The position numbers and the translations under genes are program-made. This document shows, one piece after another, positions 1 through 4,251 of a DNA stretch of 64,000 bases. Under the pieces are notes generated by a model. It had not been told where the DNA came from. It ran no database searches and worked only from the letters and a program-made list of their open reading frames with translations. Source of the DNA: Candidatus Peribacteria bacterium (lineage in GTDB: Bacteria; Patescibacteriota; Gracilibacteria; Peribacterales; Peribacteraceae); NCBI GenBank assembly GCA_041691135.1, contig JBEPVF010000008.1:8529-72528 (forward strand), given 5' to 3'. Positions within the stretch are counted from its first letter, which is position 1; every line of letters starts with the position of its first letter.

Positions 1-702
1 CTCAAACCGGAGCAGATTCCAGCTATACCGTTCTCCAAAGAAGACCTACAACGAGCCAAGGAACTTGGAGACAGTCTCCGTCTGCGGGTGAGTAAAGCGC
101 CGGGTAACGGCAACTTGAGCATGGAGAAGATGCAGGAACTGTTGCAGCCAACCTTCGACCAAAAGAACGAAGGAAAGGTTTTGTATGATACCGACTGGTA
201 CGAGGGTGAGGACTTCTTCAAGGAAGCCCCTGAACTCTGCTGGGTGCTTACATCGGATGGAATCATTCCGGATTCCGAAGACAAAGATTATCTCCAGCAG
301 ACGGAACATATTGCCGAGTACCTTCGTGAGACGGTTTATAAGGGCAAAAAACTTCCGCAGCAATACAGCGATGCAATCAAGGAAATGGAAACTCAGAAAG
401 ATGAGATCCGTCGCCTTATCGATGCTAATGACTGGCAGAAAGCAGCTGAAAAACTTGCGAATCTTACACTCAACAAACTCACGCGCCGCGTCCCTGTTGA
501 AGTGCTCTATGACATGCTTGTGACATTCCAGAATGGTGATAAGCGCCATCTGGAAGATTTCTATGATTGGACAGGTGTCCGCAGCTCGGTCGGTCGCCTC
601 GTCCACGTCGGCCCCTTCGATCCGGACGGCGTGGGCGTCGACGACTGGTCTCCGAGCGGCTCGGATGACGCTCTCGGGGTTGTCCTCGCTCGGAAGTTCT
701 GA
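1..702 (+). CDS. DGR target protein (5'-truncated by window edge), C-terminal variable region, probable CLec-like fold
   Basis: Frame 1 is open from base 1 (LKPEQIPAIPFSKEDLQRAKELG...) to TGA 700-702. The last 40 codons match the TR at 1115-1234 with A-specific changes. Confidence 0.9.
   Translation, partial: LKPEQIPAIPFSKEDLQRAKELGDSLRLRVSKAPGNGNLSMEKMQELLQPTFDQKNEGKVLYDTDWYEGEDFFKEAPELCWVLTSDGIIPDSEDKDYLQQTEHIAEYLRETVYKGKKLPQQYSDAIKEMETQKDEIRRLIDANDWQKAAEKLANLTLNKLTRRVPVEVLYDMLVTFQNGDKRHLEDFYDWTGVRSSVGRLVHVGPFDPDGVGVDDWSPSGSDDALGVVLARKF
580..699 (+). repeat. DGR variable repeat (VR)
   Basis: 120-nt ungapped match to 1115-1234. 18 mismatches lie opposite TR adenines; one non-A mismatch (AAG vs AAC) lies near the 3' end. 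Confidence 0.96.
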
Positions 703-1114
703 GCCTTGAGGTCTTGAAAGCTTGATCCTCCTTGAATCCTTTACTCTTGAAGCATCCGCTACAGGCGATTTTGTCGGATTTTGCACTGGATGCTGGCTTC
801 ATTTGCATCATAGGATGCATTTGCGGCCCGTTCTTGCAGTCAGGGTTACGGCTCTGGCTCACGGTACGCCTCATCTCTGCTACCACTGAAGCGGTCAGCG
901 TAGGTGGAAACTCACCAGAATACCGTGCCTCTACGGAGCACAGTAGCGAGTGGGCTTAGATGTGAAGGAACTTCTTGCTCATTCTCAGACTCGGTATCGT
1001 TTCCCAAGATGATTGCGGGCGAATCAAATTCAGGGGAAAGAGGATATAGCCCAGTGTTTTTTGTTTGGCTGGGGGTAAACCTCGATCTCCGGTGTCTCGG
1101 ACGGGAGTGAGCAA

Positions 1115-1234
1115 CACAGCTCGGACGGTAACCTCGTCAACGTCGGCAACTTCGATCCGGACGGCGTGAACGTCAACAACTGGAATCCGAACAACTCGAA
1201 TGACGATCTCGGGGTTGTCCTCGCTCGGAACTTC
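1115..1234 (+). repeat. DGR template repeat (TR)
   Basis: AAC/AAT-rich copy of the VR (cac agc tcg gac ggt aac ctc gtc aac ... cgg aac ttc). No adenine occurs at third codon positions in the VR frame. Confidence 0.96.
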
Positions 1235-1242
1235 CTTCTCGG

Positions 1243-1281
1243 TAATCCAGGGGACTCTCGCCTTCAGAGTCCCTTGGGTTA
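1243..1281 (+). other. 16-bp hairpin immediately 3' of TR (DGR spacer structure/terminator candidate)
   Basis: taatccaggggactct-cgccttc-agagtcccttgggtta. The two imperfect pairs are G-U wobbles only on the + strand. Confidence 0.7.
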
Positions 1282-1629
1282 TCCCTCGCGTGTCGATTTG
1301 ATCCATCCGCCGAGCATGCGTCCAATCTCATCAATCATTTCCTGAATGAGAGCGTACTTCTTCAGGTCGATGGCCTTTACGTCCTTGGCGAGACGAAGGA
1401 AGACACGGAGAACATTGAGCTTAAGGCTGACGCGCTCAAGCGGTTCCAGTTTCTGTGCTTTGCGTACTTGGCTGGCAAGAATGATGCCTTCCAATACCTC
1501 CAGCACGAGATTCTCGCAGCGAGGCCAGAGCGCAGTGCGATCTTGTTTGGAAATAGATGCCCGAAACTCATAGAGCTTCTTGGTTAGTTCGTAGGCCTTC
1601 TTGAAAATTGGGATATCTAATTCTTCCAT
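1279..1629 (-). CDS. avd: DGR accessory variability determinant Avd (four-helix bundle), antisense to TR/RT
   Basis: MEELDIPIFKKAYEL...LNVLRVFLRLAKDVKAIDLKKY...IDEIGRMLGGWIK matches bAvd hallmarks. It lies between TR and RT. Confidence 0.9.
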   Translation of the reverse strand: MEELDIPIFKKAYELTKKLYEFRASISKQDRTALWPRCENLVLEVLEGIILASQVRKAQKLEPLERVSLKLNVLRVFLRLAKDVKAIDLKKYALIQEMIDEIGRMLGGWIKSTREG

Positions 1630-1642
1630 AACGACATAAAGC

Positions 1643-2692
1643 ATGAAAGTACACAAGCATATCTTCGAGCGGATCATTACGCCAGAGAACTTATTCCAAG
1701 CTTGGGAGGAGTTCCGCAGAGGCAAGGGATCTCGAAAAGACGTACAGGCGTTCGAGTGGCAGCTTGAACAGAACATCCTGTCTCTTTGTCGGGATCTGCG
1801 TAGCCGGACGTACAGACATGGGGAATATTCGGCTTTTTCGATCTGTGATCCGAAGCAGCGCCGGATACATAAAGCGGCTGTACGTGATCGCATACTTCAT
1901 CACGCAATTTTTAAGGTGTTGAATCCCATCTTCGAGCCGACGTTTATTGCACATTCCTATTCCTGTCGTGAGGGGAAAGGAACACACAAGGCAGTTGATA
2001 CATTGGAAACGTGGCTGCGAAAAGTCAGCCAAAATTGTAGGGTGCCGTGTTTTGCTCTCAAGTGTGACATCCAACAATTCTTCGCCTCAGTCGATCATGC
2101 AATCCTGCTCTCGATCCTTGATCGGAAGATCAAAGACCCTGATGCGATGTGGCTGCTGAAGGAGGTAGTGGAGAGTTTCTCCACGCCTGTGCAAGAAAAT
2201 GAACGTCCCAAAGGTATTCCTATCGGCAATCTCACTTCGCAGTTATTTGCGAACGTGTACTTGAACGAGTTCGATCAATTCATGAAGCAAAAACTACGCA
2301 TCCGTCACTACGTTCGGTACACAGATGATTTTGTGATCGTGAGTTCAGACAAGTCTGCATTGGAGAATCTGATTCCAGTCATGCAGGAATTTCTCAGTGA
2401 AACTATGTTTCTCAAACTGCATCCTCGAAAAATCATCCTTCGCAAATTCGGTCAGGGCATCGACTTCCTCGGATATGTCATCCTGCCTCACTATCGTGTA
2501 CTTCGGACTCGGACAAAACAGCGAATGTTTCGGAAACTCAAGCTCCGAGTGGTTAGCTTTAAGACTGGTAAGGGTAGCGAGTCGTCTGTTGAGTGTTCAC
2601 TCCAGTCCTATCTTGGCGTTCTATCGCATGCGAATACTGAACAGCTCACTGAGGAGTTGAAAAACCAATGCTGGTTTTGGATGTGCGAATAG
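1643..2692 (+). CDS. DGR reverse transcriptase
   Basis: RT motifs PKQRRI, RDRILHHA, GKGTH, KCDIQQFF, GIPIGNLTSQLFAN, YVRYTDD and GIDFLGY. 349 aa with no maturase or endonuclease domain. Confidence 0.95.
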   Translation: MKVHKHIFERIITPENLFQAWEEFRRGKGSRKDVQAFEWQLEQNILSLCRDLRSRTYRHGEYSAFSICDPKQRRIHKAAVRDRILHHAIFKVLNPIFEPTFIAHSYSCREGKGTHKAVDTLETWLRKVSQNCRVPCFALKCDIQQFFASVDHAILLSILDRKIKDPDAMWLLKEVVESFSTPVQENERPKGIPIGNLTSQLFANVYLNEFDQFMKQKLRIRHYVRYTDDFVIVSSDKSALENLIPVMQEFLSETMFLKLHPRKIILRKFGQGIDFLGYVILPHYRVLRTRTKQRMFRKLKLRVVSFKTGKGSESSVECSLQSYLGVLSHANTEQLTEELKNQCWFWMCE

Positions 2693-2796
2693 CATCAAGT
2701 CCTTAAAGCATCCACTCTTAATGGCTTTCTATGCGTCAAGTTGACGTTACAAAAGCGACCAAAAACGTTACGATGGACTGCAATCCGCCCCTTTGA

Positions 2797-4251
2797 ATGC
2801 TCACAAAATCCGACTATCTCCGGTACCTCGAATGTCCCATCCATCTTTGGATACACAAGCATCGATCCCATGAGGTCGGTCATCATATTGATCCTCAACT
2901 TCAGTGGATCTTCGAGCAGGGGGACAGAGTGGAAGCATACGCACGTAGCCTCTTTCCCGATGCCGAGATAGTCAGCGGCCACTCGCAAAAATCTGAGGAG
3001 CAGACTAAGGCATTAATTGAGTCAGGGGTTACAGACATATTCCAAGCGACGGCGATTGCGGATGGATTGCTCGCTATGGCTGACGTTTTCCAGCTCGATC
3101 CTGAAACGCAGGAATGGAATTTGTATGAAGTGAAAAGTACGAGTGAACTCCAAGATGGGCATCTACATGATGTGTGTTTTCAGATGATTGCCTTTAAGAA
3201 AGCGGGATACACCATGGGCAAGCTTCATCTCATCCACATCAATCCCAATTACGTAAGACGCGGAGAGATAGATGCACGTTCCTTGTTGGTCATTGAAGAC
3301 ATCACGGAACAGGTCTATTCCTTGGAAGCGGAGGTGCTTGTCCAGATTGCTGCTGCGAAACAGGTTGAAGCATCAGCTGACATGCCATCGTGTGACGGCT
3401 GTACGTGCTCACCCAAGGACTGCTTTTGCCATCACTATTGCTACCCCGATCTTCCGGATTACTCTGTCTTTCAACTCAGTCGTATCAAGGTAAAACAGGC
3501 CCGTGATCTCTATCGCAAAGGAATTCGTAATCTTCTCGAGATTCCTCCGGACTTCAAGCTCACAGCAGCGCAAGCACTACAGTTGCAAGTCGTCCGCACT
3601 GGAAAACCCGTCATCGATACGAGGAGCATCAGCACTATCCTGAATACGACGAAATACCCCCTCGCTTTTCTCGACTACGAAACGTTCTTTCCGGCTGTGC
3701 CACTCTTTGACGGATACAAGCCCTATCAACAGATGGTTTTTCAGTACTCGCTTCACGTCTTGTTGGAAGATGGAACGCTACAGCATTCTGAATGTCTTGT
3801 GCGAACTCTTGTCGATCCTGTGTCAGAGATCCTTCGTACTCTACGGTCCCAGCTTCCTGAAAATGGAACGGTTGTGGTGTGGAACAAGGGGTTTGAGATG
3901 GGGAGGAACGAAGAAATGGCCGCGCTCTTGCCCGATCAGGCGGTTTTCCTTCGTTCGCTCAATAGCAGGGTCTTCGATCTCATGGAAATCTTCAGCAAAC
4001 ACCACTATGTACACCCCGATTTCCGGGGAAGTTACTCGATTAAAAAAGTCTTACCCGTTCTAGTGCCATCTCTGTCTTATAAGGATCTGGAAATTCAAGA
4101 AGGCGGAACAGCCTCACTGACGTGGTATCGGATGCTTACCGATGGACGCAGTGAGGTCGAGAAGCTGAAGACGCGTGAGGCCATGCTCGCATATTGTAAA
4201 CTTGATACGTTGGCGATGGTCGAAGTTTTTCGATGTTTGAAGGCTTTGTAG
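2797..4251 (+). CDS. DUF2779-containing putative nuclease (N-terminal PD-(D/E)XK/Cas4-like, Cys cluster, C-terminal RNase H-like)
   Basis: LTKSDYLRYLECP, ADVF...LYEVKS, CDGCTCSPKDCFCHHYC, FLDYETF, PYQQMVFQYSLH, SIKKVLP and YCKLDT motifs. Confidence 0.75.
   Translation: MLTKSDYLRYLECPIHLWIHKHRSHEVGHHIDPQLQWIFEQGDRVEAYARSLFPDAEIVSGHSQKSEEQTKALIESGVTDIFQATAIADGLLAMADVFQLDPETQEWNLYEVKSTSELQDGHLHDVCFQMIAFKKAGYTMGKLHLIHINPNYVRRGEIDARSLLVIEDITEQVYSLEAEVLVQIAAAKQVEASADMPSCDGCTCSPKDCFCHHYCYPDLPDYSVFQLSRIKVKQARDLYRKGIRNLLEIPPDFKLTAAQALQLQVVRTGKPVIDTRSISTILNTTKYPLAFLDYETFFPAVPLFDGYKPYQQMVFQYSLHVLLEDGTLQHSECLVRTLVDPVSEILRTLRSQLPENGTVVVWNKGFEMGRNEEMAALLPDQAVFLRSLNSRVFDLMEIFSKHHYVHPDFRGSYSIKKVLPVLVPSLSYKDLEIQEGGTASLTWYRMLTDGRSEVEKLKTREAMLAYCKLDTLAMVEVFRCLKAL

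What the first reader, a model, noticed from the sequence alone, without database searches (positions are those of the whole stretch)
1115..2692. DGR with its avd gene encoded antisense inside the TR-RT spacer, head-to-head with RT
Seen: target, TR and RT are on +, while a clear Avd ORF (1279-1629) is on -. Only 13 nt separate the avd and RT start codons, and the avd stop overlaps the 16-bp hairpin that follows TR. Established: in model DGRs (Bordetella BPP-1, Legionella, Treponema) avd is co-oriented with TR and RT, and the region 3' of TR is functional RNA used in cDNA priming. Inference: 13 nt cannot hold two promoters. A TR-RT transcript would have to read through avd antisense, and avd would be driven from inside the RT gene. 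This could be an excludon-like or antisense switch coupling Avd supply to TR-RNA/RT levels, with one sequence serving as both spacer RNA and Avd code.
Basis: partly seen in the sequence, partly recalled or inferred. Interest (0 to 1): 0.8.

Follow-up and report, generated by a model that had tools for sequence, protein, structure and literature searches.

The report
Ordinary CPR-type DGR, unusual template RNA
This is a normal diversity-generating retroelement of the kind typical for candidate-phyla-radiation bacteria, in which a backwards-facing avd gene is the rule, and its template appears to sit inside a separate structured RNA whose helper parts lie in front of the template instead of behind it.

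Summary
VR is at 582-699, TR at 1117-1234, avd on the minus strand at 1279-1629 and RT at 1643-2692. The start codons are 13 nt apart, and an 18-bp hairpin covers the avd stop.

The layout is not unusual. All 77 RT-homologous loci with room upstream have avd antisense and head-to-head with RT. Wu et al. 2018 already name this layout architecture B3, TR-(avd)-RT, found in 90% of their CPR set.

The idea that the antisense of avd doubles as spacer RNA is not supported. Synonymous sites along avd show no extra constraint. The hairpin sits a fixed 2-21 nt after TR, favours the plus strand, and is followed by a T-tract in 47 of 71 relatives.

The conserved, covarying RNA lies 5' of TR instead. It is a ~150-nt domain found in 59 of 81 sources. 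A long-range helix links its 5' edge to the linker after TR, and a -10-like box lies upstream.

I read TR as an independent structured RNA, possibly a circular permutation of the Bordetella phage DGR RNA. How avd and RT are transcribed from a 13-nt gap remains untested.

The parts
1..702 (+). 3' part of DGR target gene 2. The full ORF is 340 aa and starts upstream of the window. It has no Pfam or NCBIfam family.
582..699 (+). Variable repeat (VR) at the 3' end of the target ORF
   Evidence: 85% identical to TR over 118 nt, with 17 of 18 mismatches at TR adenines
705..750 (+). Five CTTGA repeats (705, 713, 721, 731, 746) directly after the target stop codon. They are conserved in relatives. Their function is unknown.
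811..816 (+). -10-like hexamer TAGGAT, the putative promoter of the TR RNA. The predicted start is near 823. It is weak in the window (4 of 6 matches).
   Evidence: Among 21 aligned relatives, 19 have a 5-6 of 6 match to the -10 consensus 14-32 nt before the first conserved hairpin, against 8.9% of random 35-nt windows. This part is inferred.
836..955 (+). Upstream conserved RNA hairpins: 838-859 with a UACG loop, and 911-954 with a second TACGG-type loop
   Evidence: Compensatory changes (20 of 25 predicted pairs with both-sides changes, 21 sequences)
964..975 (+). P0 5' strand. It pairs with 1227-1238, the 3' end of TR plus the linker. Proposed primer-strand analogue.
   Evidence: Predicted. 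Cognate duplexes average -12.35 versus -9.59 kcal/mol for non-cognate, with 0 of 5000 permutations as good, n = 49 loci.
956..1120 (+). Conserved structured 5' domain (model R1). H1 is 976-986 with 1103-1113, H2 is 990-993 with 1016-1019, and H3 is 1033-1041 with 1082-1090.
   Evidence: The window scores 126.7 bits. There are 60 hits in 59 of 81 sources, all on + and all ending at TR. 97.1% of cells are paired versus 63.9% in shuffles, and covariation is 0.906 versus 0.254. The own genome holds a single copy.
1117..1234 (+). Template repeat (TR). The last A that differs from VR is at 1206. A1229 and A1230, inside P0, are unchanged in VR.
1227..1238 (+). P0 3' strand (IMH*-like end of TR plus the linker)
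1241..1283 (+). Stem-loop 2 nt after P0, with 18 pairs including 3 G.U on the + strand. It holds the position of the Avd-binding stem-loop of the Bordetella phage RNA and is the likely 3' end of the TR RNA. It contains the avd stop codon.
   Evidence: for the Bordetella phage comparison
1279..1629 (-). avd (116 aa)
   Evidence: Pfam bAvd 63.7 bits and NF033474 85.1 bits
1630..1642 (.). 13-nt gap between the divergent avd and RT start codons
1643..2692 (+). DGR reverse transcriptase (349 aa)
   Evidence: RVT_1 79.2 bits. 211 tblastn-confirmed relatives, of which the best 80 were kept, mostly CPR/Patescibacteria MAGs.

Best explanation
This is a complete DGR of the CPR type, with architecture B3, TR-(avd)-RT. 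The antisense, head-to-head avd is the normal layout for this clade.

Shown here:
- TR is embedded in a conserved, covarying + strand RNA.
- A ~150-nt multi-helix domain (956-1120) ends 3 nt before TR.
- A long-range helix (964-975 with 1227-1238) clamps the 3' end of TR to the 5' edge of that domain.
- A strong stem-loop (1241-1283) follows 2 nt later and covers the avd stop.
- avd carries no detectable RNA-level constraint on its antisense strand.

Inferred:
- The TR RNA is its own transcript. It would run from a -10-like box near 811-816 to the stem-loop, about 460 nt, so it does not need the antisense of avd as spacer.
- The stem-loop acts as an Avd-binding element and as a terminator or 3'-end protector.
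- The elements that lie 3' of TR in the Bordetella phage RNA (primer strand, cPRT-Stop strand, RT-binding parts) lie 5' of TR here.
- avd and RT are a compact divergent pair whose promoters lie inside each other's coding sequence. RT may also be fed by read-through of the stem-loop.
For: Layout.
- 77 of 80 RT-homologous loci have avd on the opposite strand directly upstream of RT. The other 3 have RT at a contig edge.
- Wu et al. 2018 define B3 = TR-(avd)-RT as 90% of their CPR set (passages).
- The start-to-start gap is 13 nt in the window and in L001-L008, and -2 to 14 nt in L010-L037.

TR position. TR lies on + directly upstream in 57 of 69 loci examined. The distance from TR end to hairpin is 2-21 nt with one outlier, whereas the distance from TR end to avd stop ranges from -1 to 71 nt.

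Hairpin strand.
- G.U pairs: 40 on + versus 8 on -.
- At least 5 T in the next 10 nt: 47 of 71 loci on + versus 1 of 71 on -.
- Window hairpin: -29.1 kcal/mol on + versus -21.8 on -.

5' domain.
- Model R1 hits 59 of 81 sources, all on + and all abutting TR.
- 97.1% of cells are paired, and 441 cells carry double changes against 132 in shuffles (0 of 500 shuffles as high); slid controls give 40-54% paired.
- In an RT-blind sample of 151 genomes of the phylum, 18 have R1, and 17 of those 18 also have the RT. 20 of the 23 R1 hits lie about 500-700 nt upstream of an RT hit and are co-oriented with it.

Long-range helix.

No constraint in avd.

-10-like box: 19 of 21 loci versus a background of 8.9%.

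Comparison RNA. In the Bordetella phage RNA the Avd-binding stem-loop directly follows TR. The primer strand and the Stop strand are adjacent to each other, and TR is looped out between their partners (Handa et al. preprint, sections read).
Against: - There is no transcript evidence of any kind; no RNA run was listed.
- In the window's own clade the hairpin has no T-tract (3 T of 10), and the consensus scan found no terminator. Termination here is therefore inferred from relatives only. The window as a whole shows no enrichment of T-tract terminators either (20 found, 18.3 expected).
- The window's -10-like hexamer matches only 4 of 6 positions.
- No consistent -10-like box was found upstream of RT or avd (13 and 19 of 37 loci, at scattered positions). 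An RT promoter inside avd is not shown, so read-through from the TR promoter remains a live way to express RT.
- The synonymous-site test uses diverged pairs and would miss weak or short constraints.
- The alignment scored was fitted to the model, which favours pairing.
- The T-tract of distant relatives lies in Lys/Asn/Gln codons of avd and could partly reflect protein or composition constraints.
Confidence: 0.72

Rival explanations
1. A single long + transcript runs TR, then the antisense of avd, then RT. It overlaps the avd mRNA over its whole length and acts as an excludon-like switch. The antisense of avd also supplies the spacer RNA used for priming.
For: - The 13-nt gap leaves no room for separate promoters.
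- No consistent -10-like box lies upstream of RT.
- The window's hairpin has no T-tract.
- In the Bordetella phage, more than 100 nt 3' of the first stem-loop are essential.
Against: - Synonymous sites along avd show no added constraint.
- A hairpin plus T-tract on + follows TR in 47 of 71 relatives.
- The conserved, covarying RNA lies 5' of TR and already contains strands that pair with both ends of TR.
- The layout is the clade norm.
Confidence: 0.2
2. The hairpin is mainly a bidirectional terminator or 3'-end stabiliser between the convergent TR RNA and avd mRNA. It has no role in the RT-Avd ribonucleoprotein.
For: - It lies between convergent units and covers the avd stop.
- In several relatives A-rich 5' arms pair with T-rich 3' arms.
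Against: - Its distance is fixed relative to TR, not relative to the avd stop.
- Wobble pairs and T-tracts favour + only.
- Its position matches that of the Avd-binding stem-loop of the Bordetella phage RNA. Handa et al. report such a stem-loop just after TR in 207 of 278 Avd-type DGRs.
- The two roles do not exclude each other.
Confidence: 0.25
3. The avd orientation is an assembly inversion or the current state of an invertible switch.
For: None found.
Against: - No inverted repeats flank avd.
- The orientation is identical in 77 independent assemblies.
Confidence: 0.01

Closest known systems
Architecture B3 DGRs, TR-(avd)-RT, of CPR bacteria (Wu et al. 2018, PMC5758913). These correspond to the CPR-restricted 'DGR clade 2' of Roux et al. 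(preprint 10.1101/2020.04.01.020958, passages).
   Same: The order and orientation of target, TR, avd and RT are the same. The host is a CPR bacterium; the closest loci are Peribacteria and Peregrinibacteria MAGs. The target has no recognisable domain.
   Different: Nothing in the gene layout differs. The passages I read describe the layout but not the RNA around TR or how the divergent pair is transcribed.
Bordetella phage BPP-1 DGR and its RNA (avd 3' end - TR - Sp), from the Handa et al. preprint 10.1101/2023.10.23.563531
   Same: Both have a TR/VR pair with A-specific changes and both use Avd plus RT. A stem-loop directly follows TR. One duplex involves the 3' end of TR, and a second duplex involves the segment just 5' of TR. 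The two partner strands are contiguous, with 0 nt between them here and 2 nt in the phage.
   Different: In the phage, avd is co-oriented and upstream, and all partner strands and RT-binding elements lie in about 140 nt 3' of TR. Here they lie 5' of TR, and the RNA 3' of the stem-loop is unconstrained antisense avd. No sequence similarity was shown, and Rfam gave no hit.
Excludon (long antisense RNA spanning divergent genes; Listeria paradigm, recalled and not read here)
   Same: Divergent genes lie so close that their 5' regions must overlap.
   Different: No long antisense transcript is shown. Relatives carry a terminator-like element between TR and avd.

Membership tests
Diversity-generating retroelement | TR/VR repeat pair whose differences fall at TR adenines | tested here: met
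   17 of 18 mismatches at TR adenines over 118 nt. A second VR lies upstream of the window.
Diversity-generating retroelement | Reverse transcriptase gene next to TR | tested here: met
   RVT_1 79.2 bits. No DGR-specific RT model exists in the libraries used, and the best NCBIfam hit (group II RT) is below its cut-off. The relatives sit in TR/VR-bearing loci. The SQ-type motif seen in the translation is a recalled hallmark.
Diversity-generating retroelement | VR at the 3' end of a protein-coding target | tested here: met
   VR 582-699 lies in an ORF ending at 702.
Diversity-generating retroelement | Avd accessory protein | tested here: met
   NF033474 equivalog 85.1 bits against a cut-off of 80, and Pfam bAvd 63.7 bits against 40.
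Diversity-generating retroelement | Ongoing mutagenic retrohoming | not testable with these tools
   This needs population reads or an experiment.
Architecture B3 (Wu et al. 2018) | Core order TR, then avd on the reverse strand, then RT | tested here: met
BPP-1-type DGR RNA | Stem-loop immediately 3' of TR (Avd-binding element) | tested here: met
   The position and structure are met. Binding to Avd is not testable here.
BPP-1-type DGR RNA | About 100 nt of further essential spacer RNA 3' of that stem-loop | tested here: not met
   Synonymous sites in the antisense-avd region show no added conservation. A T-tract follows the stem-loop in 47 of 71 relatives.
BPP-1-type DGR RNA | Adjacent primer and Stop strands pairing with the 3' end of TR and with the segment just 5' of TR | tested here: inconclusive
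   Two such helices exist and covary, but their shared strand is 5' of TR. Functional equivalence is inferred.
Excludon-like antisense switch | Long transcript antisense to the neighbouring divergent gene | not testable with these tools
   No RNA holder was listed.
Intrinsic terminator | G+C-rich hairpin followed by a T-tract | tested here: inconclusive
   In the window there is a hairpin but only 3 T of 10, and the scan gave no hit. 47 of 71 relatives meet the feature on the + strand.
Invertible DNA switch | Inverted repeats flanking the inverted segment | tested here: not met

The most novel reading that the evidence does not exclude
The template RNA of CPR-type (B3) DGRs is a circular permutation of the Bordetella phage DGR RNA.

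In the phage the order is: Stop partner, TR, Avd stem-loop, primer strand, Stop strand, RT-binding elements.

Here the order is: primer strand (964-975), Stop strand (976-986), internal helices and conserved single strands (987-1102), Stop partner (1103-1113), TR, Avd stem-loop and 3' end (1241-1283).

This model predicts:
- Priming occurs from a nucleotide at the invariant CTTG junction near 974-977.
- cDNA starts near 1226.
- cDNA stops near 1114-1117.

Moving the helper RNA to the 5' side would free the 3' flank. That could explain why avd can sit antisense against the stem-loop in this whole clade.
Probability: 0.45. Interest if true: 0.7.

Novelty: new member of a known kind. Interest (0 to 1): 0.42.

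Why it matters
The reported oddity, antisense avd, is the published norm for CPR DGRs, so on its own it is ordinary.

Following it up does give a concrete and testable picture of the template RNA in the largest uncultivated DGR clade. The RNA would be a discrete molecule of about 460 nt. It has a covarying 5' domain, a clamp helix across TR and a 3' stem-loop.

If the permutation reading is right, three things follow:
- The ribonucleoprotein logic solved for the Bordetella phage would extend to CPR elements in rearranged form.
- The minimal RNA needed to reconstitute a CPR DGR would be defined.
- The reason the gene order differs would be explained.

It also flags an open question on how avd and RT are expressed from start codons that are 13 nt apart or even overlapping.

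Tried and rejected
- RNA evidence: no RNA holder was listed for 560-2700, so expression, transcript ends and read-through could not be examined.
- Rfam: no hit at E <= 1 in 560-1700.
- Consensus scan of 500-3000: one promoter-like site inside RT on the - strand (2061-2034), no better than shuffles (1 found, 2.0 expected), and no terminator-like site.
- -10-like boxes upstream of RT and avd: they are scattered, with no fixed position, so no promoter was assigned.
- Shine-Dalgarno use: a crude gene set shows SD-like motifs upstream of 7 of 51 genes against a background of 12.5%. The lack of SD at avd and RT is therefore uninformative. Start calls in that set are rough.
- Raw synonymous-codon identity looked raised at avd codons 81-100. 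This vanished after normalising by amino acid.
- Start-codon calls for distant loci (L039 onward) and for L009 were unreliable. They were left out of the gap statement.
- Hairpin calls for L042, L044 and L076 look wrong. They were kept in the counts.
- Paul et al. 2017 (CPR DGR survey) is not held. It and the supplements of Wu 2018 and Handa et al. were not seen and may bear on whether the 5' domain is already described.
- Literature searches for a permuted or 5' structured DGR RNA found nothing relevant. Passages read also held nothing on it.

Full report
**Observation**

The window opens inside a target gene whose last 118 nt (582-699) are a variable repeat. The template repeat lies at 1117-1234 on the same strand. 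The two align without gaps, and 17 of the 18 mismatches fall at TR adenines.

A 116-aa ORF on the minus strand (1279-1629) is Avd. It scores 63.7 bits against Pfam bAvd and 85.1 bits against the NCBIfam DGR Avd equivalog, both above their cut-offs. A 349-aa reverse transcriptase starts 13 nt from the avd start, on the plus strand (1643-2692).

The hairpin after TR is real. As plus-strand RNA it forms 18 continuous pairs at -29.1 kcal/mol (z -6.26). Three G.U pairs become A.C mismatches on the minus strand, which folds at -21.8 kcal/mol. The avd stop codon lies in its 3' arm.

No inverted repeats flank avd. A second VR lies just upstream of the window in a paralogous target.

**Is the layout unusual?**

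No. I fetched 80 loci encoding RT relatives (47-90% identical), mostly from CPR/Patescibacteria MAGs. A phmmer search with the window's Avd found an avd ORF on the opposite strand directly upstream of RT in 77 of them. The remaining three have RT within 110 nt of a contig end.

The start-to-start gap is as follows:
- 13 nt in the window and in L001-L008.
- -2 to 14 nt in L010-L037. Seven of these loci share CATG between the two start codons, and six have no gap.
- L009 and the distant loci were dropped because their start calls were unreliable.

Wu et al. 2018 (passages read) already classify this as architecture B3, TR-(avd)-RT. [quoted passage not shown] They also note that some DGRs need at least two transcription units.

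**Does the antisense of avd serve as spacer RNA?**

Three results argue against it.

1. *The hairpin belongs to TR, not to avd.* In 57 of 69 loci examined I could find an A-biased TR/VR pair, always with TR on the RT strand. The distance from TR end to hairpin is 2-21 nt with one outlier, while the distance from TR end to avd stop ranges from -1 to 71 nt.
2. *The hairpin favours the plus strand.* This holds across 71 loci:
   - G.U pairs number 40 on plus against 8 on minus.
   - At least 5 T occur in the next 10 nt on plus in 47 loci, against 1 on minus.
   - In the distant relatives it is a textbook hairpin plus T-tract lying inside the last avd codons.
   - The window's own clade lacks the T-tract, and the window shows no general enrichment of such terminators (20 found, 18.3 expected). 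Termination here is therefore inferred from relatives.
3. *Synonymous sites in avd are unconstrained.* I scored codon identity among identical residues and normalised it by amino acid, using 36 sequences and 597 pairs below 80% identity. The ratio along avd is flat at 0.93-1.16, and 0.95-1.02 in the last 20 codons. The first ten codons of avd (1.08) and RT (1.11) are only slightly raised.

**Where the functional RNA is**

The 413 nt between the target stop and TR are more conserved than the flanking genes among the closest relatives, and they show compensatory changes.

*The 5' domain.* A ~150-nt domain directly before TR is recognisable in all groups.
- A covariance model built from 30 sequences found 60 matches in 59 of 81 sources. 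All are on the plus strand and all end at TR.
- On the resulting alignment 97.1% of cells are paired, against 63.9% in shuffles and 40-54% when partners are slid.
- 441 cells carry changes on both sides against 132 expected, and the covariation score is 0.906 against 0.254. That alignment was fitted to the model, which favours pairing.

*Window coordinates of the helices.*
- H1 is 976-986 with 1103-1113.
- H2 is 990-993 with 1016-1019.
- H3 is 1033-1041 with 1082-1090.

*Test without selecting on RT.* In a sample of 151 genomes of the phylum, 18 hold the domain. Seventeen of those 18 also hold the RT. Twenty of the 23 domain hits lie about 500-700 nt upstream of an RT hit and are co-oriented with it. 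The window's genome has one copy.

*Long-range helix.* Segment 964-975, immediately 5' of H1, pairs with 1227-1238, the unmutated 3' end of TR plus the linker. Over 49 loci the cognate duplexes average -12.35 kcal/mol against -9.59 for non-cognate pairs, and 0 of 5000 permutations reach that value. The paired sequences differ between lineages.

*Further upstream*:
- two conserved hairpins with TACGG-type loops;
- five CTTGA repeats directly after the target stop.

A -10-like hexamer is also present, matching 5-6 of 6 positions in 19 of 21 relatives against 8.9% of random windows. In the window it is TAGGAT at 811-816 and matches only 4 of 6 positions.

**Mechanism**

The Handa et al. preprint (sections 6-8, 10, 11 and 19 read) gives the picture for the Bordetella phage RNA:
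- The Avd-binding stem-loop follows TR directly.
- A primer strand pairs with the 3' end of TR.
- A Stop strand 2 nt further on pairs with the segment just 5' of TR.
- RT-binding elements follow these strands.
- All of these elements lie 3' of TR.
- Their survey of other DGRs used only 40 nt upstream and 100 nt downstream of TR.

Here the same topology appears with the shared strand moved to the 5' side. P0 would stand for the primer duplex and H1 for the Stop duplex. The helices enclosed by H1 would take the place of the RT-binding part, and the 3' stem-loop would be the Avd element.

I therefore read the TR RNA as a discrete transcript of about 460 nt (roughly 823 to 1283) that does not need the antisense of avd. 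The existence of the helices and their strand is shown. The transcript ends, protein binding and priming site are inferred.

**What stays open**

- With 13 nt or less between the start codons, the avd and RT promoters must lie within each other's coding sequence. I found no consistently placed -10-like box for either gene.
- Shine-Dalgarno motifs are not enriched in this window at all (crude).
- RT could be expressed by read-through of the stem-loop, which would be antisense to avd.
No RNA run was listed.

**Novelty**

The gene layout is already in print. The locus is a new member of a known kind.

The 5' domain gave no Rfam hit. I found no description of it, or of a permuted DGR RNA, in four full-text searches and the passages read. 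Paul et al. 2017 and the relevant supplements were not available to me.

Noticed in passing
Upstream of the window: G000 contig C8 7986-8106, which is L082 1501-1621: A second VR, 87% identical to TR over 121 nt, sits at the 3' end of a paralogous target ORF of at least 546 aa. The DGR therefore has two tandem targets. The closest relatives (L001-L008) also show two VRs.
   Followed up: partly
window 705-750: Five CTTGA repeats spaced 8-15 nt apart lie directly after the target stop codon. They are conserved in position across 21 aligned relatives. They could be a protein-binding array or a target-site element. Their function is unknown.
   Followed up: partly
window 836-955: Two further conserved hairpins with TACGG-type loops lie upstream of the R1 domain and show compensatory changes. 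The conserved RNA is therefore longer than the modelled 154 positions.
   Followed up: partly
Genomes G016, G023, G036, G069, G071, G075, G078, G085, G099, G111, G148: In many genomes of the phylum the RT match is split near query residue 185 into two adjacent pieces, sometimes in separate open frames. This could be a recurrent split, a frameshift or an interrupted DGR RT.
   Followed up: no
G101:C1:14483-14618, G093:C4:19014-19163, G016:C1:522397-522544: These R1-domain hits have no RT hit nearby at E <= 1e-30. They may be orphan or decayed elements, or weak false matches.
   Followed up: no
L039 1887-1999: A second R1-like match lies about 1.4 kb upstream of the main one in the same locus. 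Several genomes also hold two or more R1/RT pairs.
   Followed up: no
window 1-64000 (crude gene set): SD-like motifs are no more frequent upstream of long ORFs (7 of 51) than at random positions (12.5%). Other divergent ORF pairs have gaps of only 15-42 nt.
   Followed up: partly
window 2797-4251: The gene directly after RT encodes a 484-aa DUF2779 protein (132.9 bits). I did not examine whether it is linked to the DGR.
   Followed up: no
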